NCBI RefSeq assembly: GCF_988242995.1
Contig: NZ_OZ547043.1
Direction: 5' to 3' (one strand)
DNA: 64,000 nt
Shown: positions 8,065 through 61,110 of the stretch, one piece after another
Position numbering within the stretch: position 1 is the stretch's first letter
Layout: the number at the start of each line of letters is the position of its first letter
The notes under the pieces: generated by a model
Databases searched by the model: none
What the model saw: only the letters and a program-made list of their open reading frames with translations
Told to the model about the DNA's origin: nothing
Translations under genes and position numbers: made by a program

Positions 8065-9078
8065 ATGACGCAGGAAAACGAGATCAAACGTCCCACCCAG
8101 GATCTGGAGCACGAGCCGATTAAGCAGTTGGATAATAGCGAGAAAGGCGGCAAAGTTAGCCAGGCGCTGGAAACCGTCACCACCACTGCCGAAAAAGTCC
8201 AACGCCAACCGGTTATTGCGCACCTGATTCGCGCAACAGAACGCTTTAACGATCGGCTGGGTAACCAGTTTGGTGCGGCTATCACCTATTTCTCATTTTT
8301 ATCGATGATCCCGATTTTGATGGTGTCGTTTGCCGCAGGGGGCTTTGTGCTGGCCTCCCATCCGATGTTGCTACAGGATATCTTCGACAAAATTCTGCAA
8401 AACATCAGCGATCCGACGCTAGCCGCCACGTTGAAAAACACCATCAACACCGCCGTTCAGCAGCGTACGACTGTAGGGCTTGTCGGCCTGGCGGTGGCGC
8501 TTTATTCCGGCATCAACTGGATGGGTAACCTGCGTGAAGCGATTCGCGCCCAGTCACGCGATGTCTGGGAACGCTCGCCGCAAGATCAGGAGAAGTTCTG
8601 GGTAAAATATCTGCGTGATTTTATTTCGCTGATTGGTTTGTTGATTGCACTGATTGTGACGCTTTCGATCACCTCGGTTGCCGGTTCGGCGCAGCAAATG
8701 ATTATTAGCGCCCTGCACCTGAACAGCATTGAGTGGCTGAAACCGACGTGGCGGTTGATTGGCCTGGCGATTTCCATCTTCGCCAACTATCTGCTTTTCT
8801 TTTGGATCTTCTGGCGCTTGCCGCGCCACCGTCCGCGCAAAAAAGCCCTGATTCGCGGAACATTTCTGGCTGCGATTGGTTTTGAAGTGATTAAAATCGT
8901 GATGACCTACACCCTGCCATCGCTGATGAAATCCCCCTCTGGCGCAGCATTTGGTTCCGTGCTGGGACTGATGGCGTTTTTCTACTTCTTCGCCCGTTTG
9001 ACGCTGTTTTGCGCGGCGTGGATTGCCACCGCCGAATATAAAGACGACCCGCGAATGCCGGGGAAAACGCAGCGGTAA
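8065..9078 (+). CDS. yhjD: Inner-membrane protein of the YihY/BrkB family, 337 aa
   Basis: Track ORF MTQENEIKRPTQDLEHEPIKQLDNSEKGGK...; multiple hydrophobic segments; expected length. Confidence 0.9.
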   Translation: MTQENEIKRPTQDLEHEPIKQLDNSEKGGKVSQALETVTTTAEKVQRQPVIAHLIRATERFNDRLGNQFGAAITYFSFLSMIPILMVSFAAGGFVLASHPMLLQDIFDKILQNISDPTLAATLKNTINTAVQQRTTVGLVGLAVALYSGINWMGNLREAIRAQSRDVWERSPQDQEKFWVKYLRDFISLIGLLIALIVTLSITSVAGSAQQMIISALHLNSIEWLKPTWRLIGLAISIFANYLLFFWIFWRLPRHRPRKKALIRGTFLAAIGFEVIKIVMTYTLPSLMKSPSGAAFGSVLGLMAFFYFFARLTLFCAAWIATAEYKDDPRMPGKTQR

Positions 9079-9108
9079 TTCATTGGTTTATAATGCCTGA
9101 TAAACGCA

Positions 9109-9165
9109 CGGTCGATCCCCTCGCCCCTTCGGGGAGAGGATTAGGGTGAGGGGGTACAAGCCAGC
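9109..9165. repeat. GC-rich intergenic repeat with hairpin (boxC-like family), downstream of yhjD
   Basis: Sequence cccctcgccccttcggggagaggattagggtgaggggg recurs almost verbatim at 10881-10925; contains the cccc-ttcg-gggg stem-loop. Confidence 0.55.
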
Positions 9166-9469
9166 CAGAGACCAGGCAACGACATGCACATAACCACCTG
9201 AAACTACATCTCTTCAGGAGCAAACAATTTCATACCAACTCATAACCCCAGCATATAAATCCAGTTGGTAACTTTTATTTAACCTGAAACCAGTTTTATC
9301 CACTATTTATAAAATTATGTGAAGCATTTCATAGAAGAAAAATCACTGGCCTAAACATTATCCCCTTTTTGCCTGGTTTTTGACCATTTCCGCGATTTGT
9401 TACACATTGAAATATCACTTTTGCTGTGCGTAATATGGCTATTCGTTAGCCAAAAAATAAGAAAAGATT

Positions 9470-10792
9470 ATGCAAGCAACAGCCACAACACTCGACCACG
9501 AGCAAGAATACACGCCGATCAACTCGCGTAATAAAGTCCTTGTCGCCTCTCTCATTGGCACGGCCATTGAGTTCTTCGACTTTTACATTTACGCCACTGC
9601 GGCCGTTATTGTGTTTCCGCATATCTTCTTCCCGCAGGGCGATCCTACGGCAGCAACGCTCCAGTCGCTCGCCACCTTCGCCATCGCCTTCGTCGCGCGC
9701 CCCATTGGCTCTGCCGTTTTTGGTCATTTTGGCGATCGCGTTGGGCGTAAAGCGACGCTGGTCGCCTCGTTGCTAACGATGGGGATTTCGACCGTGCTGA
9801 TTGGTCTGCTGCCGGGCTATGCCACGATTGGTATTTTCGCCCCGCTGCTGCTGGCGCTGGCTCGATTTGGTCAGGGTCTGGGCTTAGGCGGTGAATGGGG
9901 CGGTGCGGCGCTGCTGGCGACTGAAAACGCCCCACCGCGCAAACGTGCTCTGTATGGCTCCTTCCCACAGCTGGGCGCACCGATTGGCTTCTTCTTTGCC
10001 AACGGCACTTTCTTGCTGCTTTCCTGGCTACTGACCGACGAGCAGTTTATGAGCTGGGGCTGGCGTGTGCCATTTATCTTCTCAGCGGTGCTGGTCATTA
10101 TCGGCCTGTATGTTCGCGTGTCGCTGCATGAGTCGCCGGTGTTTGAGAAAGTCGCTAAAGCGAAAAAGCAGGTGAAGATCCCGCTGGGTACGCTGCTGAC
10201 CAAACATGTTCGCGTAACCGTACTGGGTACGTTCATTATGCTGGCAACCTATACGCTGTTTTACATCATGACGGTCTACTCTATGACCTTTAGTACCGCC
10301 GCCGCGCCAGTTGGGCTTGGCCTGCCGCGTAACGAAGTATTGTGGATGCTGATGATGGCAGTGATTGGTTTTGGCGTGATGGTGCCAGTCGCCGGATTAC
10401 TGGCTGATGCCTTTGGTCGCCGTAAAAGCATGGTAATCATCACCACGCTGATCATCCTGTTCGCGCTGTTCGCCTTTAACCCTCTGCTCGGTTCTGGCAA
10501 CCCGATTCTGGTTTTTGCCTTCCTGCTGCTGGGGTTAAGTCTGATGGGACTGACCTTCGGGCCGATGGGCGCGCTGTTACCAGAGCTGTTCCCGACAGAA
10601 GTGCGTTACACCGGAGCATCGTTCTCTTACAACGTAGCGTCGATTCTCGGGGCTTCCGTTGCGCCGTATATCGCAGCCTGGTTGCAGACTAACTACGGGT
10701 TAGGTGCGGTGGGGTTATATCTGGCGGCGATGGCTGGCTTGACGTTAATCGCCCTGCTGCTGACCCATGAGACGCGACATCAGTCGTTGTAA
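9470..10792 (+). CDS. yhjE: MFS transporter (metabolite:H+ symporter family), 440 aa
   Basis: Track ORF MQATATTLDHEQEYTPINSRNKVLVASLIGTAIEFFDFYIY...; many predicted TM segments. Confidence 0.92.
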   Translation: MQATATTLDHEQEYTPINSRNKVLVASLIGTAIEFFDFYIYATAAVIVFPHIFFPQGDPTAATLQSLATFAIAFVARPIGSAVFGHFGDRVGRKATLVASLLTMGISTVLIGLLPGYATIGIFAPLLLALARFGQGLGLGGEWGGAALLATENAPPRKRALYGSFPQLGAPIGFFFANGTFLLLSWLLTDEQFMSWGWRVPFIFSAVLVIIGLYVRVSLHESPVFEKVAKAKKQVKIPLGTLLTKHVRVTVLGTFIMLATYTLFYIMTVYSMTFSTAAAPVGLGLPRNEVLWMLMMAVIGFGVMVPVAGLLADAFGRRKSMVIITTLIILFALFAFNPLLGSGNPILVFAFLLLGLSLMGLTFGPMGALLPELFPTEVRYTGASFSYNVASILGASVAPYIAAWLQTNYGLGAVGLYLAAMAGLTLIALLLTHETRHQSL

Positions 10793-10800
10793 GTATCGTG

Positions 10801-10935
10801 CGGGCTGCCACCCTCACCCCGGCCCTCTACCCAGAAAGTGAACGGAAAAGCGGTACTCGTTGTTTCAACACGCACAAAACAGTCCCCTCGCCCCTTTGGG
10901 GGGAGGGTTAGGGTGAGGGGAGCACGCTGCTCCCG
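10801..10935. repeat. GC-rich intergenic repeat pair (boxC-like), inverted copies downstream of yhjE
   Basis: ccaccctcacccc near 10808-10822 is the reverse complement of the ggggtgagggtgg core; cccctcgcccctttggggggagggttagggtgagggg at about 10881-10925 matches the 9109-9165 element. Confidence 0.55.
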
Positions 10936-10964
10936 AACTCACCAGCAAACACAATCCAACCTCA

Positions 10965-13025
10965 TCACTTCTTCATCTGCGACAAAATCGTCCGGCACTG
11001 ATTAGCCTCCCCTTCGGAAGGTGAGATCAGCGCCAGTAACGCCGCCGCTGGCGTAACCAGCGTTGCCAGTGCCGCCGCAACGGCTCCTCGGGCAATCAAC
11101 GGCCCGGCTTTCACCCCAGCCTGCGGATTTTTAAATGTCCCACGCACATACAGCGGCGAACGCAGCGTGATAATCCGAATCCCTTTACTTTCTGGATCGA
11201 TAGTCAAATCCAGTTGCTCCGAAGCAAAACTTGCCGTGCCGGTAACATTGATCAACGCATTCTCAGTATCAAAAGCAAAAATCTGCGGACGCGCCACGCC
11301 GTTGGCAATATCCAGATTCGCCGCCGCACAGTTCACCCGCACCTCATCGTCACCAAATATCGCACCGACAATGTAGTTGCCGACATTCAGCCCGACAATC
11401 TCCATCAGGTTGCGGCTCACCAGCCCGTCATTCATCAACAGTTTCAGGTTGCCGTTACTGTTGCCTAAAAGCGCCGCCACCGAGTTACCGCTACCGCGTA
11501 GTTCCGCGTCACCGTTCATTTCCCCCAGCGTCTTCTGCATCAGTTCTACATCGGGCATCAGTTCTTTCAGTTTCAGCCGACGAGCCTGAATATCTGCCCG
11601 CCCTTGCATCGGTTTTTTATCACCTTCCAGATGAATATTCGCCGCAATGCTGCCGCCCGCCATGCCAAATTTCAGCGGTTGCAGGCGCAGGTCAGCATTT
11701 TTGAGGATGATATGAGTAGAAAGATCGCTAATCGGCAGGCTACTGCCATGCTCAATGCGCCGCCCTTTGAAGCGAACATCGGCATCCATGACGTCCCATT
11801 TATCGGTTTCGAAGCGGTCATAAGGCAGCACTTTGCCCGCAGGCTGAACGCTTTTTTCACCCTTCTTCTGTTCAGACCGTTTCGACTTTTCAGCTCCTTT
11901 CCCGGAATCAACGCCAATCAACGGTCCCAGGTCCGCCAGCCGCAATTGCCGCGACTCGACATCACCTTCCAGTTTTGGTCGTGGCTTGCCGGTGGTGTAG
12001 ACCAGAGAACCGTGGATATCGCTATCGCCAATGCGCCCATTAAAACCGCGATAATCAAAGACCGACGATTTTTCAGTGTCGATTTTCGCTACCAGCCGAC
12101 CATCCGTTTCAAACGGCGGGGTATCGGGCAGCAGAACGCCCGTCAGTTCATAGAGATCACCCAGCGAATCGCCAGAAAATTTAAGCCGTAAATCGACACC
12201 ACCCATCTTCATTGGGTCATTCACAACGCCATCAAAAGCAACACGGGTGTTACCAGAGCGAAAATCAGCCTGTACCGGAAATGGTGTACCTTCGCCACGC
12301 AGCGCCAGCATACCGCCTATTTTTCCCGTACCAGTGAGCGGTTCACCGTTATAACGTCCATGCGCCTTCAGGCCAAAAACGTAATCACCCACCTTTTCTT
12401 TATCCGCTTTACCTTTCGATCCAGTAACTTCGCTGAACGGCAGCGGCTTGCCTAACGGATCGACAAAAATTTCCAGATCCGCTTTGCTTACTTTGTCATC
12501 AATGGCGATCCGCCCTTGATCGAAAAGAATATTATCCAGCCGAAACGACCATGCCGACGGCTTTGCATTCGCGTCTTTGTTATCATCGCTGGCGAGATTA
12601 AATGTCCAGTTGTTGTTCTTTTCTGAGAGGCGAATCAGGCGTGCGTCGGGCTTTTCCAGTTTGATCCACGGTAGCCAGACCGTTTTGGTCAGCAGCGCCA
12701 ACGGGGCCAGCGTTGCCTCTACGCGTGGCAAATGCACCATTGTGACTTCGGGAATATCTGGTGGGTTGCCGAGAATGATGTCTTCCGCGTGTATATGGGG
12801 CCACGGCACCCAGCTGCGCCAGCCAGTTTCTTGCTTTTGCCGCTCCCACACCACGCCCAGATCGCCACGGATAGCGAACGGACGATTCAACTCCGCAGAG
12901 ACTTTCTGGTTGATGGTCGGTTTGAGTCGATTCCAGTCAAAAGTTGCAATCAAAATGATCGCCACGACAATCAACAACAAGAAAGCCCCTGAAATCGCAG
13001 CGGTTATTTTGCCTGCCTTGCTCAT
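10965..13025 (-). CDS. yhjG: AsmA-family outer-membrane biogenesis protein, ~686 aa
   Basis: Track ORF 10965..13040 (691 aa); the N-terminal TM anchor follows MSKAGKITAAISGAFLLLIVVAIILIA, so the Met at codon 6 was used as start. The 13040 start is an alternative. Confidence 0.88.
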   Translation of the reverse strand: MSKAGKITAAISGAFLLLIVVAIILIATFDWNRLKPTINQKVSAELNRPFAIRGDLGVVWERQKQETGWRSWVPWPHIHAEDIILGNPPDIPEVTMVHLPRVEATLAPLALLTKTVWLPWIKLEKPDARLIRLSEKNNNWTFNLASDDNKDANAKPSAWSFRLDNILFDQGRIAIDDKVSKADLEIFVDPLGKPLPFSEVTGSKGKADKEKVGDYVFGLKAHGRYNGEPLTGTGKIGGMLALRGEGTPFPVQADFRSGNTRVAFDGVVNDPMKMGGVDLRLKFSGDSLGDLYELTGVLLPDTPPFETDGRLVAKIDTEKSSVFDYRGFNGRIGDSDIHGSLVYTTGKPRPKLEGDVESRQLRLADLGPLIGVDSGKGAEKSKRSEQKKGEKSVQPAGKVLPYDRFETDKWDVMDADVRFKGRRIEHGSSLPISDLSTHIILKNADLRLQPLKFGMAGGSIAANIHLEGDKKPMQGRADIQARRLKLKELMPDVELMQKTLGEMNGDAELRGSGNSVAALLGNSNGNLKLLMNDGLVSRNLMEIVGLNVGNYIVGAIFGDDEVRVNCAAANLDIANGVARPQIFAFDTENALINVTGTASFASEQLDLTIDPESKGIRIITLRSPLYVRGTFKNPQAGVKAGPLIARGAVAAALATLVTPAAALLALISPSEGEANQCRTILSQMKK

Positions 13026-34808: not shown

Positions 34809-34874
34809 GTTTGGATGCAAGAATGGCCCCCGTGGTGTTGTCAGGTGCATACCTGCAACGTGCGGGGGTTTTCT
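34809..34874 (+). ncRNA. Rdl-family antisense RNA (copy 1); coordinates approximate
   Basis: Plus-strand hairpin cccccgtggtgttgtcaggtgcatacctgcaacgtgcggggg followed by ttttctct, antisense to the ldr leader. Its 5' part differs from copy 2. Confidence 0.5.
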
Positions 34875-35135
34875 CTCTCCAGCAACCAATGCCACCAGGG
34901 ATTAAGCCCCCGCAACATTGCGCCTCACCGGAACCCTTCCGGCTTGACGCTGATTCTACGACTGTTTTTCTGTTCCGGAATCCATCACGTCTTCACTCTG
35001 TGCTGCGCATTCCGCAGAATATTATCCGCTTGCAACCGTTGCATTTTTCTTACGAAAAAGGCCGCAGAGTTTCACCCCTGCGGCCTGATCCGGGCGCAAA
35101 TTGCCATTACGGCAGCCTGACGCCCGCATGACACG

Positions 35136-35243
35136 TTACTTCCGCTTGTTCAGCCAGTTCATGATCATACTGGCAAGAATGCCAGCAATGACCGGAGCCG
35201 CTAAATCATGCCAGAAGGCCATGCCCAGTTCTGCGAGCGTCAT
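35136..35243 (-). CDS. ldrD: Ldr-family type I toxin, 35 aa (copy 2, LdrD-like)
   Basis: Last 35 codons of track ORF 35136..35378: MTLAELGMAFWHDLAAPVIAGILASMIMNWLNKRK. ATG at 35241-35243. Confidence 0.8.
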   Translation of the reverse strand: MTLAELGMAFWHDLAAPVIAGILASMIMNWLNKRK

Positions 35244-35291
35244 ATAGCCGCCTCTGTTGTAATGACAACGTTTCGCGGCTATTCTTGAGTG

Positions 35292-35357
35292 GTCTAGAGT
35301 CAAGATTAGCCCCCGTGGTGTTGTCAGGTGCATACCTGCAACGTGCGGGGGTTTTCT
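35292..35357 (+). ncRNA. rdlD: RdlD-like antisense RNA (copy 2); coordinates approximate
   Basis: ggtctagagtcaagattagcccccgtggtgttgtcaggtgcatacctgcaacgtgcgggggttttct: hairpin plus U-run, antisense to the ldr leader. Resembles RdlD as I recall it. Confidence 0.55.
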
Positions 35358-42704: not shown

Positions 42705-43467
42705 TATTCTGCTCCAATTGTGATGTTTGTTGTTTTAACCCTTTGCAGTGGGTTGTCGCTGCCTGACCTTTTTTGTTTTTTGCCCGGTCGGGTCAACGTT
42801 ATGAGGTGGGGATGCCGTACTAATTAACATCAGTGTAACAGTGCGGATCCTCCATAAAATGCCCCTCGTGACCTACAATCTGTCAACAGAATGTGAAAAC
42901 GTCAATACAGCCAACCGGGATTTACACCAACGGTGAGAATCCACAAACAAAGATTAAAAAAACTTCAAACAGCTATTTGCAGCAGAGAAATTTGTGCTAC
43001 TCCAACATGACCAGAACAATCAGCTTAATATTTAGCAACAATTGGTGATTAAGTTTTATGCATTTAGTGAAAAAAATCTGAGGAAAAGGTGGATATCTGA
43101 GCGATTAATACCATGAACGCTAAAACGCACAGGGGAAAATGCCAGCGCCAGCCATAAGTAACGCAAAAAAAGATTTAAGCAAATATAAAAAAAGACAATG
43201 GTTTCTGTCACAAATCCGTTAATGGATAGTGAGATATGGGGCGCAAATTTGGCAGGGAAATATGTGGTGTGTTGCCGTTTAGATCGGATAAGACGGATAC
43301 GCTGTATCCCACAATGAGTGCGGTGCCGAATTTGGTCGGTGCCAGAGGATTACTCGCCACTTCGTGGCTCGCCCTGCGGGCCGTTGCTGGCGCAACGTTC
43401 TCTCGCTTCGCTCGAGTCGAACCTCCCTGCCCCCGGAGGTTCTCATCCTCTTCAGGCCGCAGAAAGC

Positions 43468-43495
43468 AAAAAAACCAGCCCGTAGGCTGGTTTTT
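43468..43495 (-). terminator. Intrinsic terminator downstream of proK
   Basis: aaaaaaccagcccgtaggctggttttt: perfect ccagcc/ggctgg stem with U-run on the proK (minus) strand. Confidence 0.7.
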
Positions 43496-43501
43496 CTAAA
43501 T

Positions 43502-43578
<77 letters not shown>

Positions 43579-54654: not shown

Positions 54655-54775
54655 ACTTTTATCCACTTTATTGCTGTTTACGGTCCTGATGACAGGACCG
54701 TTTTCCAACCGATTAATCATAAATATGAAAAATAATTGTTGCATCACCCGCCAATGCGTGGCTTAATGCACATCA

Positions 54776-54934
54776 ACGGTTTGACGTACAGACCATTAAA
54801 GCAGTGTAGTAAGGCAAGTCCCTTCAAGAGTTATCGTTGATACCCCTCGTAGTGCACATTCCTTTAACGCTTCAAAATCTGTAAAGCACGCCATATCGCC
54901 GAAAGGCACACTTAATTATTAAAGGTAATACACT
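54776..54934 (+). promoter_or_regulatory. cspA long 5' UTR (cold-box / RNA thermosensor leader)
   Basis: The leader acggtttgacgtacagaccattaaagcagtgtagtaaggcaagtcccttcaagagttatcgttgatacccctcgtagtgcacattcc... precedes the cspA ATG by about 159 nt. A -35/-10 pair (ttgcat ... gcttaat) and an AT-rich UP element lie just upstream. Confidence 0.8.
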
Positions 54935-55147
54935 ATGTCCGGTAAAATGACTGGTATCGTAAAATGGTTCAACGCTGACAAAGGCTTCGGCTTCATCACT
55001 CCTGACGATGGCTCTAAAGACGTGTTCGTACACTTCTCTGCTATCCAGAACGATGGTTACAAATCTCTGGACGAAGGTCAGAAAGTGTCCTTCACCATCG
55101 AAAGCGGCGCTAAAGGCCCGGCAGCTGGTAACGTAACCAGCCTGTAA
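54935..55147 (+). CDS. cspA: Major cold-shock protein CspA, 70 aa
   Basis: Track [73 protein letters not shown]; RNP1 motif KGFGFI. Confidence 0.97.
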
Positions 55148-55173
55148 TCTCTGCTTAAAAGCACAGAATCTAA

Positions 55174-55208
55174 GATCCCTGCCATTTGGCGGGGATTTTT
55201 TTATTTGT
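55174..55208 (+). terminator. cspA intrinsic terminator
   Basis: atccctgccatttggcggggat followed by ttttttta. Confidence 0.7.
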
Positions 55209-55334
55209 TTTTCAGGAAATAAATAATCGATCGCGTAATAAAATCTATTATTATTTTTGTGAAAAATAAATTTGGGTGCAATGAGAATGCGCAACGCCGT
55301 AAGAAAGGCGGGAATAACTTCCCGCCGAAGACTC

Positions 55335-55487
55335 TTACTCTTTCAAATTGCAGGCTAAAAATGCCGCCAGCTCATAACTCCCCTGTTTAATATGCAATTC
55401 ACACAGTGAATCTCTTATCATCCAGGTGAAAAATAAAAGCGTGAAACAAATCACTATTAAAGAAAGTAATCTATATTTCTGCGGCAT
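55335..55487 (-). CDS. hokA: Hok-family type I toxin HokA, 50 aa
   Basis: Track ORF 55335..55547 (70 aa); the last 50 codons MPQKYRLLSLIVICFTLLFFTWMIRDSLCELHIKQGSYELAAFLACNLKE are the Hok toxin. The in-frame upstream extension probably covers the mok/leader region. Confidence 0.85.
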   Translation of the reverse strand: MPQKYRLLSLIVICFTLLFFTWMIRDSLCELHIKQGSYELAAFLACNLKE

Positions 55488-55766
55488 TCCCAGCCCCCTA
55501 TGTTGATTTCCAACGAGTAAGAGGCTAACCTTATGGTGTTCAGGCATAGGGTAGCCTCACTTTGATTTATAGTCAGGTGGGGCTTTTCTCTGTCTGCCTT
55601 TCGGTGAATACCTGAGACAAACAGTCTCAAGCACCCGCAGCTATTCTAGCTTAATAAGTTCGTTTCTTCTCCTTGATATAATCCTAAAAAAATCTCATAA
55701 AATTAATATATGAGACAATCTTTATTCAGCAGAAGATTATTAAAGGTTGCTCTATTATTTAGCGAT

Positions 55767-60405: not shown

Positions 60406-61110
60406 AAATGCGCCTATAAGGCTCTCTTACCAGCCGCGCCCTAACAGGCGCACACGATCTGACATTTGCATCCAACTTCGTTACTTACGGCCCGTAAACG
60501 GGCTGCCCGGATAGGGAATCGATAACTGCTCTCCCATTTTATCCTCTTCAAGCTGGTGCTTTATGTAATCCTGTATCTTCGCCGTGTTCTTACCCACTGT
60601 ATCGACGTAGTACCCTCTGCACCAGAACTCCCTGTTCCTGTATTTGAATTTCAAATCACCAAACTGCTCGTAAAGCATCAGACTGCTTTTCCCTTTCAGA
60701 TATCCCATAAAGCCGGATACGCTCATTTTGGGCGGGATCTCCACAAGCATATGGATATAATCTGCACAGCATTCAGCTTCCAGAATCCGTACGCTTTTCC
60801 ACTCACACAGCTTTCTCAAAATACTGCCTATTGCTCTACGCTTCTCTCTGTAGAACACCTGTCTTCGGTATTTTGGCGCAAAAACTATGTGATATTTACA
60901 GTTCCATCGGGTGTGCGCTAAGCTCTTTTCGTTCCCCATTGGGACCCCCTTTTGATTTCTTGTTTGACACTTGCAGTTGCCAGACCGCAAAGTGTTTTAA
61001 CAAATCAAAAGGGGTTTTAATAACTGGCTCAAAGCTGAAAGCTTTCCGGAACCCCCAGCCTAGCTGGGGGTTTTCTGTGCACAATAAAGGCCCGGTCACA
61101 TTGGACTGAC
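60405..61110 (-). mobile_element. IS200-like insertion sequence (IS200/IS605 family); boundaries approximate within about 30 bp
   Basis: Single Y1 (HuH) transposase gene with about 75 bp after the stop and about 170 bp before the start. The upstream end carries the characteristic perfect hairpin acccccagcctagctgggggtt. Total about 0.7 kb, as expected for IS200; no terminal inverted repeats, consistent with the family. Confidence 0.8.
60481..60939 (-). CDS. tnpA: IS200-family transposase TnpA (Y1 HuH transposase), 152 aa
   Basis: Track ORF 60481..60990; conserved start MGNEKSLAHTRWNCKYHIVFAPKYRRQVFY; HuH motif (HMLVEI) and catalytic Tyr region (RGYYVDTVG) present. Confidence 0.92.
   Translation of the reverse strand: MGNEKSLAHTRWNCKYHIVFAPKYRRQVFYREKRRAIGSILRKLCEWKSVRILEAECCADYIHMLVEIPPKMSVSGFMGYLKGKSSLMLYEQFGDLKFKYRNREFWCRGYYVDTVGKNTAKIQDYIKHQLEEDKMGEQLSIPYPGSPFTGRK

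What the first reader, a model, noticed from the sequence alone, without database searches (positions are those of the whole stretch)
9109..9165. GC-rich hairpin repeat downstream of yhjD
The element cccctcgccccttcggggagaggattagggtgaggggg has no obvious role as a simple terminator (no U-run) and recurs after yhjE. It resembles the small interspersed boxC-type repeats of E. coli, whose function is unknown.
Basis: partly seen in the sequence, partly recalled or inferred. Interest (0 to 1): 0.3.

Follow-up and report, generated by a model that had tools for sequence, protein, structure and literature searches.

The report
Known BoxC triplex-type intergenic repeat
The GC-rich hairpin after yhjD is an ordinary copy of BoxC (also called PIT or TMECO), a known small E. 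coli repeat with no proven function; following it up showed that repeats of this design flank DUF559 nuclease genes in many bacteria.

Summary
A 38-nt element lies at window 9117-9154, 38 nt after the yhjD stop. A 92%-identical copy lies at 10884-10920 after yhjE, next to a truncated inverted copy at 10811-10831. It has no T-run and no terminator-like hit.

It belongs to a known interspersed family: BoxC, also called PIT element or TMECO (consensus CCCTCNCCC-N3-6-GGGNGAGGG-N3-GGGNGAGGG). Copy 2 fits the consensus exactly and copy 1 has one mismatch. Similar sequences occur in 5,418 of 5,426 complete E. coli genomes, median 15 places each.

Published work shows that the single strand forms a purine-motif triplex in vitro. 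It found no triplex in vivo and no promoter or terminator activity, and it linked the repeat to locally variable DNA. This locus fits: K-12 carries REP/BIME elements in both slots, other strains carry a minimal 40-nt spacer, and the window allele has a 61-nt deletion inside the BoxC pair.

New lead, outside the window: repeats of the BoxC design flank DUF559 (Vsr-like nuclease) genes in 26-28 of 28 independently sampled loci. One is E. coli ycjD, next to a K-12 BoxC copy (TMECO no. 9). This resembles the REP-RAYT pairing.

Verdict: already known; interest low to moderate.

The parts
9117..9154 (+). BoxC/PIT/TMECO copy 1 (type A, TTA second loop), 38 nt after the yhjD stop. Block 1 is 9117-9127 CCCCTCGCCCC, loop 9128-9130 TTC, block 2 is 9131-9140 GGGGAGAGGA, loop 9141-9143 TTA, block 3 is 9144-9154 GGGTGAGGGGG.
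   Evidence: Sequence. One mismatch to the two-block consensus. Detected by an independent three-block detector. RNA fold -29.4 kcal/mol, z -2.9.
10884..10920 (+). BoxC/PIT/TMECO copy 2 (type A), between the convergent genes yhjE and yhjG. Block 1 is 10884-10894, loop 10895-10897 TTT, block 2 is 10898-10907 GGGGGGAGGG, loop 10908-10910 TTA, block 3 is 10911-10920 GGGTGAGGGG.
   Evidence: Exact match to the published consensus, 0 expected in shuffles. 92% identical to copy 1.
10811..10831 (-). Truncated inverted copy (type B, CCG second loop). Only blocks 3 and 2 remain; block 1 and 61 nt in all were lost.
   Evidence: The complete copy is seen in strain EC21Z-048 (L006).
10828..10829 (.). Junction of a 61-nt deletion relative to the full inverted-pair allele. 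The end points lie in the direct repeats AGCCCTC.
   Evidence: Pairwise alignment.
9074..9185 (.). Variable segment of the yhjD-yhjE spacer. It starts inside the second-last yhjD codon. It carries BoxC here and a two-REP BIME in K-12.
   Evidence: Alignments. The BoxC allele is in 600 of 5,426 genomes.
10793..10964 (.). yhjE-yhjG spacer, replaced as a whole between strains. The alleles are a BoxC pair (here, with the deletion), a BIME plus REP-like hairpin (K-12), or a 40-nt minimal spacer.

Best explanation
The element is a copy of the known BoxC repeat (also called PIT element or TMECO). It has three blocks: a C-rich block, its G-rich complement, and a second G-rich block that mirrors the first (CCCTCNCCC - loop - GGGNGAGGG - TTA or CCG - GGGNGAGGG).

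Identity is shown. The mechanism is inferred. Most likely the element has no dedicated job for yhjD or yhjE. It is a structure-prone, REP-like passenger that persists in 'safe' intergenic slots just past gene ends.

In a transcript it folds into a very stable GC-rich hairpin without terminator activity. In transiently single-stranded DNA (replication, repair) the G-rich strand can fold into a hairpin or a purine-motif triplex. That structure can stall polymerases and favour slippage, small deletions and replacement of whole spacers. The visible effect is local polymorphism rather than regulation.
For: Identity: copy 2 matches the consensus exactly and copy 1 has one mismatch. The K-12 fabI-upstream copy is the same sequence type. 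The family is interspersed, in 5,418 of 5,426 E. coli genomes with a median of 15 places. The type A plus type B inverted pair is as published.

Structure: both copies satisfy the triplex rule with at most 1 mismatch per block pair. Published CD and NMR show a triplex in vitro for the single strand.

No regulatory signature: no T-run and no terminator-like site, no Rfam family. Published tests found no promoter or terminator activity and no bias in gene class, orientation or distance.

Instability at this locus: there are three or four alleles at each slot. A 61-nt deletion between 7-nt direct repeats lies inside the pair. The two slots vary independently, since EC21Z-048 has a BIME after yhjD and a BoxC pair after yhjE. 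This matches the published link with variable loci and the 'palindrome effect'.
Against: No triplex was detected in vivo by DMS footprinting, and the duplex form shows no triplex signal. The instability mechanism is therefore inferred. High polymorphism could simply reflect repeated gain and loss of a mobile repeat rather than structure-induced damage. The three blocks are conserved across distant phyla while the loops vary. That points to sequence- or structure-specific recognition by some factor, which a purely passive model does not explain. REP/BIME elements, which have known RNA-level effects, occupy the same two slots in K-12, so a shared 3'-end function is not excluded. No expression data were available.
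Confidence: 0.65

Rival explanations
1. BoxC-type repeats are the cis partner, or decayed ends, of small selfish cassettes that encode a DUF559 (Vsr-like PD-(D/E)XK) nuclease. This would parallel REP and its RAYT transposase. The solo copies in the window would then be relics spread or created by such a nuclease. This is compatible with the best explanation for what the copies do today; it concerns origin and spread.
For: DUF559 genes were picked by protein similarity alone: 6 from plasmids or chromids of 5 genera (two of them Azospirillum species) and 22 from viral contigs. Homopyrimidine/homopurine hairpins lie within 220 nt of the gene ends in 28 of 28 loci, at 6.17 per kb against 0.31 per kb further out. 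Full three-block elements occur in 26 of 28 loci, 87 observed against 0.17 in shuffles. The typical layout is element(+) - gene - element(-), with the ORF often running into the downstream element. In an E. coli allele, ycjD ends inside a complete inverted BoxC and is followed by the fabI-upstream BoxC. This layout was predicted from Mitsuaria and then confirmed. ycjD sits at one locus in 62% of E. coli genomes, much as tnpA-REP sits at one locus in two thirds. Block sequences differ between lineages but keep the design. The Vsr/DUF559 clade includes a homing endonuclease.
Against: There is no DUF559 gene or remnant in the window. BoxC persists in about 2,000 E. coli genomes that lack ycjD. 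No target-site duplication, no clean filled and empty site pair, and no recent identical copies were found. No nuclease activity on these elements is known. The viral-contig sample includes near-duplicate loci, so the P value is overstated. The link could equally mean that the gene homes into pre-existing repeats, or that the repeats insulate a toxic gene.
Confidence: 0.3
2. The element works at the RNA level as a 3'-UTR hairpin. It would protect the yhjD and yhjE mRNAs from 3' exonucleases or attenuate read-through, as REP elements do.
For: It lies 38 nt after the yhjD stop, and the pair lies between convergent genes. The RNA folds are very stable: -29.4 kcal/mol for copy 1, and -63.6 kcal/mol (z -3.2) for the pair region. 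REP/BIME elements occupy exactly these slots in K-12. The BoxC spacer lacks the REP-like hairpin present in the other alleles, so it could substitute for it.
Against: Published tests found no terminator activity and no effect on RNA polymerase. The family shows no orientation bias and is reported more often upstream than downstream of ORFs. The best RNA helix (block 1 with block 3) is not kept by covariation: the variable positions in 145 Mitsuaria copies are independent or lean towards mismatches. Conservation of a third block is unnecessary for a protective hairpin.
Confidence: 0.15
3. It is a regulatory DNA structure (G-quadruplex or i-motif) or a protein-binding site that acts on neighbouring promoters.
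For: The G-rich half of the canonical element and of copy 2 has four G3 tracts (GGG-N4-GGG-TTA-GGG-TGA-GGG), seen directly in the sequence. The blocks are conserved across phyla.
Against: Copy 1 has lost one G3 tract (GGGGAGAGGA). Published NMR favoured a triplex over a quadruplex. The elements show no fixed distance to promoters and no gene-class bias. The only promoter-like site near yhjE is more than 250 nt away.
Confidence: 0.04
4. It is a local duplication or a chance GC-rich palindrome confined to this region.
For: There are only two full copies in the 64-kb window, 1.77 kb apart.
Against: There are thousands of matches across E. coli genomes and on distant taxa. The flanks of the two copies are unrelated. 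The two sites vary independently between strains.
Confidence: 0.01

Closest known systems
BoxC, also called PIT (potential intrastrand triplex) element or TMECO. Sources: Bergler 1992 and Bachellier 1990s (from memory); Hoyne and Maher 2000-2002 and Holder et al. 2015 (PMC4666352).
   Same: Same three-block sequence, same TTA and CCG loop types, same common G.A 'mismatch' subtype, intergenic, multi-copy, occurs as type A plus type B inverted pairs, and sits in loci that vary between strains.
   Different: Nothing essential. Each window copy carries one substitution relative to the commonest K-12 form. Neither site is occupied by BoxC in K-12 MG1655 (no entry near 3.67 Mb in the published table), so these two loci are not among the 23 K-12 copies.
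REP/BIME elements and their RAYT (TnpA-REP) transposase
   Same: Short GC-rich palindromic intergenic repeats just past gene ends, often in inverted pairs, and a major source of intergenic polymorphism. K-12 has BIMEs at exactly these two slots. A single-copy associated nuclease gene, flanked by the repeats, is present in about two thirds of E. coli strains (tnpA-REP; compare ycjD).
   Different: The sequence is unrelated. BoxC has a third, mirror-repeat block that REP lacks. The candidate partner is a PD-(D/E)XK Vsr-like nuclease, not an HUH Y1 transposase. No binding proteins or RNA effects are documented for BoxC.
H-DNA and mirror-repeat triplex motifs of eukaryotes
   Same: A purine-motif triplex (G*G-C, A*A-T, T*A-T) formed by mirror-related purine blocks, associated with polymerase stalling and genetic instability.
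   Different: Here all three strands come from one DNA strand (hairpin plus third block). The motif is only about 37 nt and is a dispersed repeat family rather than a long homopurine tract.
Rho-independent terminators
   Same: A GC-rich stem-loop just downstream of a stop codon.
   Different: No U-run. No terminator-like hit. Published assays were negative.

Membership tests
BoxC / PIT / TMECO | Consensus CCCTCNCCC-N3-6-GGGNGAGGG-N3-GGGNGAGGG | tested here: met
   Copy 2 (10885-10919) matches exactly, with 0 expected in shuffles. Copy 1 has one mismatch, GGGAGAGGA in block 2. The consensus is taken from PMC4666352.
BoxC / PIT / TMECO | Interspersed and multi-copy in E. coli (23-32 copies reported for K-12) | tested here: met
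   A 121-nt query finds 71,534 places in 5,418 of 5,426 genomes, median 15 and maximum 26 per genome. There are 10-13 places in the genomes identical to the window.
BoxC / PIT / TMECO | Intergenic location | tested here: met
   All three copies lie between annotated genes: yhjD/yhjE and yhjE/yhjG.
BoxC / PIT / TMECO | Second loop of type A (TTA) or type B (CCG); inverted pairs combine A with B | tested here: met
   Both full copies have TTA and the truncated inverted copy has CCG. The full pair in EC21Z-048 combines a type A copy with a B-like CTG copy. Published rule.
BoxC / PIT / TMECO | Same sequence as the locus where BoxC was first described (near envM/fabI) | tested here: met
   The K-12 fabI-upstream copy is CCCTCGCCCCTCTGGGGAGAGGGTTAGGGTGAGGG, which is TMECO no. 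9. That BoxC was first described at envM/fabI is from memory (Bergler 1992), not read here.
BoxC / PIT / TMECO | Ability of the G-rich strand to form an intrastrand purine-motif triplex | not testable with these tools
   In silico, both copies obey the triad rule with at most 1 mismatch. Physical triplex formation was shown by others for consensus oligonucleotides only.
REP / BIME | REP consensus palindrome (GCCGGATG...CATCCGGC or GCCTGATG... types) | tested here: not met
   No REP pattern in the window. The K-12 alleles of both spacers do carry REP sequences, so the slots are shared but the families differ.
Rho-independent terminator | GC-rich stem-loop followed by a T/U run | tested here: not met
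   There is no terminator-like site after yhjD or yhjE. The sequence after the stems is TACAAGCC and AGCACGCT.
Any Rfam RNA family | Covariance-model match at or near the gathering score | tested here: not met
   Only chance-level hits overlap the elements (E of 0.9 or higher, far below gathering scores). Nothing at gathering threshold in the window overlaps them.
MITE (miniature inverted-repeat transposable element) | Terminal inverted repeats plus a target-site duplication, with clean filled and empty sites | tested here: inconclusive
   Inverted pairs exist. The alleles differ by replacement of the whole spacer, so no insertion boundaries or duplications could be read.
DUF559-flanking repeat (proposed here, not an established family) | A three-block element next to a DUF559 gene | tested here: not met
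   The window has no DUF559 gene or remnant. The association holds for the family elsewhere, not for these copies.

The most novel reading that the evidence does not exclude
BoxC/PIT/TMECO repeats are not orphan structures. They are the REP-like partners of DUF559 (Vsr-like PD-(D/E)XK) nuclease genes. The autonomous unit would be element(+) - DUF559 - element(-). Solo copies and pairs such as those after yhjD and yhjE would be its non-autonomous or decayed derivatives, and E. coli ycjD would be the resident nuclease gene. The association itself is shown here in 26-28 of 28 independently sampled loci and at ycjD. I found no report of it: none of the titles and abstracts of the 25 DUF559 and 17 ycjD papers in the library concerned repeats, and the four I opened do not mention it. 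The unproven step is that the nuclease recognises, spreads or creates the repeats.
Probability: 0.3. Interest if true: 0.7.

Novelty: already known. Interest (0 to 1): 0.3.

Why it matters
As it stands, the finding re-identifies a repeat family described in the early 1990s and studied again in 2000-2002 and 2015, so it adds little.

Two points give it some value. First, this locus is a clean natural example of two unrelated repeat families, BoxC and REP/BIME, alternating in the same two intergenic slots across 5,426 E. coli genomes. It also carries a slippage deletion inside a BoxC pair, which illustrates the published "instability" claim at single-locus resolution.

Second, what creates, spreads or uses BoxC elements has been open for about 30 years. 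The observed flanking of DUF559 nuclease genes by elements of this design, across several bacterial phyla, gives a direct experiment: test YcjD against BoxC DNA. If it held, the REP-RAYT idea would extend to a second, mechanistically different nuclease family. It would also assign a role to a widespread domain of unknown function.

Tried and rejected
- **Rfam**, at permissive and gathering thresholds: no family, only chance hits.
- **Promoter and terminator scan**: nothing at the elements.
- **Block 1 with block 3 RNA helix**: this is the predicted minimum-energy fold, with a G.U pair at the variable position. I rejected it as a selected structure. In 145 Mitsuaria copies the two variable positions do not co-vary to keep a pair (T/T 74, G/T 43, G/A 15, T/A 12; Fisher p = 0.08, leaning towards mismatches).
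- **Insertion boundaries or target-site duplications**: not possible from the BoxC, BIME and minimal alleles, because whole spacers differ.
- **Filled and empty site at ycjD**: in O157:H7 the region is replaced by the eef efflux island with no clean junction.
- **DUF559 remnants next to the window copies**: only noise.
- **Phage association**: 3 of 50,697 phage records match. IMG/VR contigs, however, hold at least 120 stretches.
- **Global taxonomic census**: Distribution therefore rests on the plasmid BLAST and the literature.
- **Bachellier 1997**, on boxC insertions into BIMEs: not held, so it is cited from memory only.
- **REP pattern search in the window**: no hit.

Full report
**Observation**

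The quoted 38-nt sequence is at window 9117-9154 on the + strand, inside the reported 9109-9165. It starts 38 nt after the stop codon of a 337-aa ORF. An identical annotated genome names that ORF yhjD, and the neighbours are rcdB/yhjC, yhjE and yhjG. No T-run follows, and a terminator scan of 8900-11100 finds nothing after yhjD or yhjE.

A second copy lies at 10884-10920 (+), between the convergent genes yhjE and yhjG, and is 92% identical over 38 nt. The flanks of the two copies are unrelated.

A truncated copy in inverted orientation lies at 10811-10831, directly after the yhjE stop.

**Significance**

The three-block pattern, however, never occurs in shuffled sequence. My own three-block detector finds exactly these two full copies in the 64-kb window.

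**Identity**

Full-text search led to Holder et al. 2015 (PMC4666352). [quoted passage not shown] Copy 2 fits it exactly. Copy 1 has one substitution at the end of block 2.

Both full copies have the TTA second loop ("type A") and the truncated copy has CCG ("type B"). Both full copies have G at the variable position of block 1. Opposite it in block 2, copy 1 has the usual A, which gives the common "mismatch" subtype. Copy 2 has G there instead.

The K-12 copy upstream of fabI is TMECO no. 9, and I recall this locus as the one where BoxC was first described. It is the same sequence type. Cozzuto et al. 2008 also list BoxC as a known E. coli stem-loop family, 56 bp and 32 copies by earlier counts.

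A 121-nt query finds matches in 5,418 of 5,426 complete E. coli genomes, with a median of 15 places per genome.

**What is published about function**

- The G-rich single strand forms a stable purine-motif triplex in vitro (CD, NMR).
- The duplex does not, and in vivo DMS footprinting found no triplex.
- Earlier work found polymerase blockage in vitro but no promoter or terminator activity and no effect in vivo.
- There is no bias in orientation, neighbouring gene class or distance to ORFs.
- Loci with the element are much more variable between strains than control intergenic regions, and inverted pairs tend to suffer partial deletions.
- I found no later functional work.

**This locus as a case study**

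K-12 MG1655 has no BoxC at either slot. It has a two-REP BIME after yhjD, and a BIME plus a REP-like hairpin after yhjE. This agrees with the absence of any entry near 3.67 Mb in the published K-12 table.

Across 5,426 genomes:

| Slot | BoxC allele | Other alleles |
|---|---|---|
| After yhjD | 600 genomes | BIME alleles of two lengths |
| yhjE-yhjG spacer | 1,600 genomes | K-12-type BIME spacer; a 40-nt minimal spacer with only the hairpin GCCGGATGTCAGACATCCGGC |

The alleles differ by replacement of the whole spacer. After yhjD the replaced segment starts inside the second-last codon. No insertion boundaries can therefore be read.

Strain EC21Z-048 has the BIME after yhjD but a complete BoxC inverted pair after yhjE, so the two sites vary independently. 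Relative to that complete pair, the window allele lacks 61 nt. The end points lie in 7-nt direct repeats (AGCCCTC), and the loss removes block 1 of the inverted copy. This is a typical slippage deletion of the kind reported for such pairs.

**Structure**

As RNA, copy 1 folds at -29.4 kcal/mol (z -2.9), and the pair region folds into a long helix at -63.6 kcal/mol (z -3.2). The predicted best helix pairs block 1 with block 3 through a G.U pair. The variable positions in 145 copies from another genome do not co-vary to keep that pair, so I do not regard it as a selected structure.

The G-rich half of copy 2 and of the canonical element also qualifies as a potential quadruplex. Copy 1 has lost one G tract, and published NMR argued against a quadruplex.

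**Distribution beyond E. coli**

- Near-identical 41-45-nt matches occur on plasmids and chromids of Klebsiella, Sinorhizobium, Azospirillum (up to 27 per replicon), Rhizobium and Aeromonas.
These included a Methylomirabilota MAG, Candidatus Contendobacter and Mitsuaria chitosanitabida, which has at least 145 copies.
- Viral contigs also hold many copies.
- Across these taxa the three blocks are constant while the loops are lineage-specific.
- In Mitsuaria, 49 of 59 close pairs have the same (-)(+) arrangement as the window pair.

**An unexpected lead**

Two Mitsuaria elements 399 nt apart flank a 125-aa ORF that is 47-50% identical to E. coli YcjD (DUF559, PF04480, E = 1e-49). All five DUF559 genes in the sequence I held lay next to such elements. 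At the four outside E. coli the layout was element(+), gene, element(-), and E. coli ycjD had elements only on its 3' side. The ORF often ran into the downstream element. Those loci had been selected for the repeat, so I resampled by protein alone:

- six tblastn hits on plasmids and chromids (two Azospirillum species, Shinella, Sinorhizobium, Sphingomonas, Neisseria);
- 22 close homologues from viral contigs.

Results:

- Homopyrimidine/homopurine hairpins lie within 220 nt of the gene ends in 28 of 28 loci. The density is 6.17 per kb against 0.31 per kb more than 400 nt away.
- Three-block elements obeying the mirror rule occur in 26 of 28 loci, 87 observed against 0.17 in shuffles.
- Block sequences differ between lineages but the design is kept.
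- Where the purine arm is asymmetric, the third block fits its mirror image (50 of 124 tests) better than a direct repeat (22 of 124). This is covariation in favour of the triplex-type relation.

The Mitsuaria layout predicted that E. coli ycjD should end in a complete inverted BoxC. K-12 has only a truncated one. Strain PS_131_S11 has the full element, 12 nt longer. It is followed by a second partial DUF559 3' end with a degenerate element, and then by the fabI-upstream BoxC. A recent paper independently notes a 12-nt longer ycjD in ST69 and ST182, and reports that ycjD replaces the eef operon in phylogroups A, B1 and C. The passages I read do not mention BoxC.

ycjD is present at one locus in 3,378 of 5,426 genomes. 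This closely resembles tnpA-REP, which is flanked by REPs at one locus in two thirds of strains. The Vsr/DUF559 clade includes a homing endonuclease, and a DUF559 protein behaves as a damaging Vsr-like nuclease in Caulobacter.

**Limits of the lead**

- The window has no DUF559 gene or remnant.
- BoxC persists in the roughly 2,000 E. coli genomes without ycjD.
- Some sampled loci are near-duplicates, so the P value is overstated.
- No activity is known.
- Direction of cause is open: the gene may home into repeats, the repeats may derive from gene ends, or the repeats may insulate the gene.
- The titles and abstracts of the DUF559 and ycjD papers in the searchable library did not concern repeats, and the four I opened do not report the association. 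The library is incomplete.

**Verdict**

The element is a known BoxC/PIT/TMECO repeat. Most likely it is a structure-prone passenger with no dedicated role for yhjD or yhjE. Its visible effect here is spacer polymorphism. Novelty: already known. The DUF559 association is recorded as the most novel reading that my evidence does not exclude.

Noticed in passing
L051 5881-6350; L052 1113-1582; L054 11500-12020; L240 378-1197; L249-L276: DUF559 (Vsr-like nuclease) genes from many taxa are flanked by elements of the BoxC design: element(+) upstream and element(-) downstream, often as [- +] gene [- +]. Hairpin density is 20 times higher near the gene ends than further out.
   Followed up: yes
L248 1700-1925 (K-12) and L286 770-1010 (strain PS_131_S11): E. 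coli ycjD ends inside an inverted BoxC, which is complete in PS_131_S11 and 12 nt shorter in K-12. A second partial copy of the DUF559 3' end with a degenerate element follows, and then the fabI-upstream BoxC.
   Followed up: yes
window 9074-9185 and 10793-10964, compared with L002, L003, L004, L006, L007: The same two intergenic slots carry BoxC in some strains, REP/BIME in K-12 and most others, and a minimal hairpin-only spacer in a few. The two slots vary independently.
   Followed up: yes
L285 1-2623 (O157:H7): In O157:H7, a TetR regulator and RND efflux genes lie upstream of fabI in place of ycjD and its BoxC. This matches the published eefRABCD / ycjD alternation.
   Followed up: partly
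L005 3419-4116: Strain CUVM53 has an IS1A insertion in the yhjD-yhjE spacer.
   Followed up: no
L254 2038-2738 (N. gonorrhoeae): About 200 nt downstream of the DUF559 gene there are three tandem 281-bp units. Each holds one (+) and one (-) variant of the three-block element.
   Followed up: no
L054 about 12020-12113: A run of the heptamer ACGGAGC in tandem lies directly next to a three-block element in Mitsuaria.
   Followed up: no
L248 2263-2305 and L286 400-442: A 15-bp perfect stem-loop (CACCTCATTCTGACA ... TGTCAGAATGAGGTG) overlaps the ycjD start codon. It could occlude translation initiation.
   Followed up: no
H121, H122 (Campylobacter phages A18a and A11a): Two 174-kb Campylobacter phage records each hold three BoxC-like matches at 90% identity. 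This is odd for an AT-rich host and may reflect contamination or a mislabelled record.
   Followed up: no
window 10898-10920: The G-rich half of copy 2 (GGGGGGAGGGTTAGGGTGAGGGG) has four G3 tracts and contains the telomere-like GGGTTAGGG, so it is also a potential G-quadruplex. Copy 1 has lost one tract.
   Followed up: partly
window 34809-35357, 43333-43578, 54775-55636, 60949-61072: Rfam gathering-score hits elsewhere in the window: two rdlD antitoxin RNAs, RtT RNA beside a tRNA, the cspA thermoregulator, sok antitoxin and STnc490.
   Followed up: no
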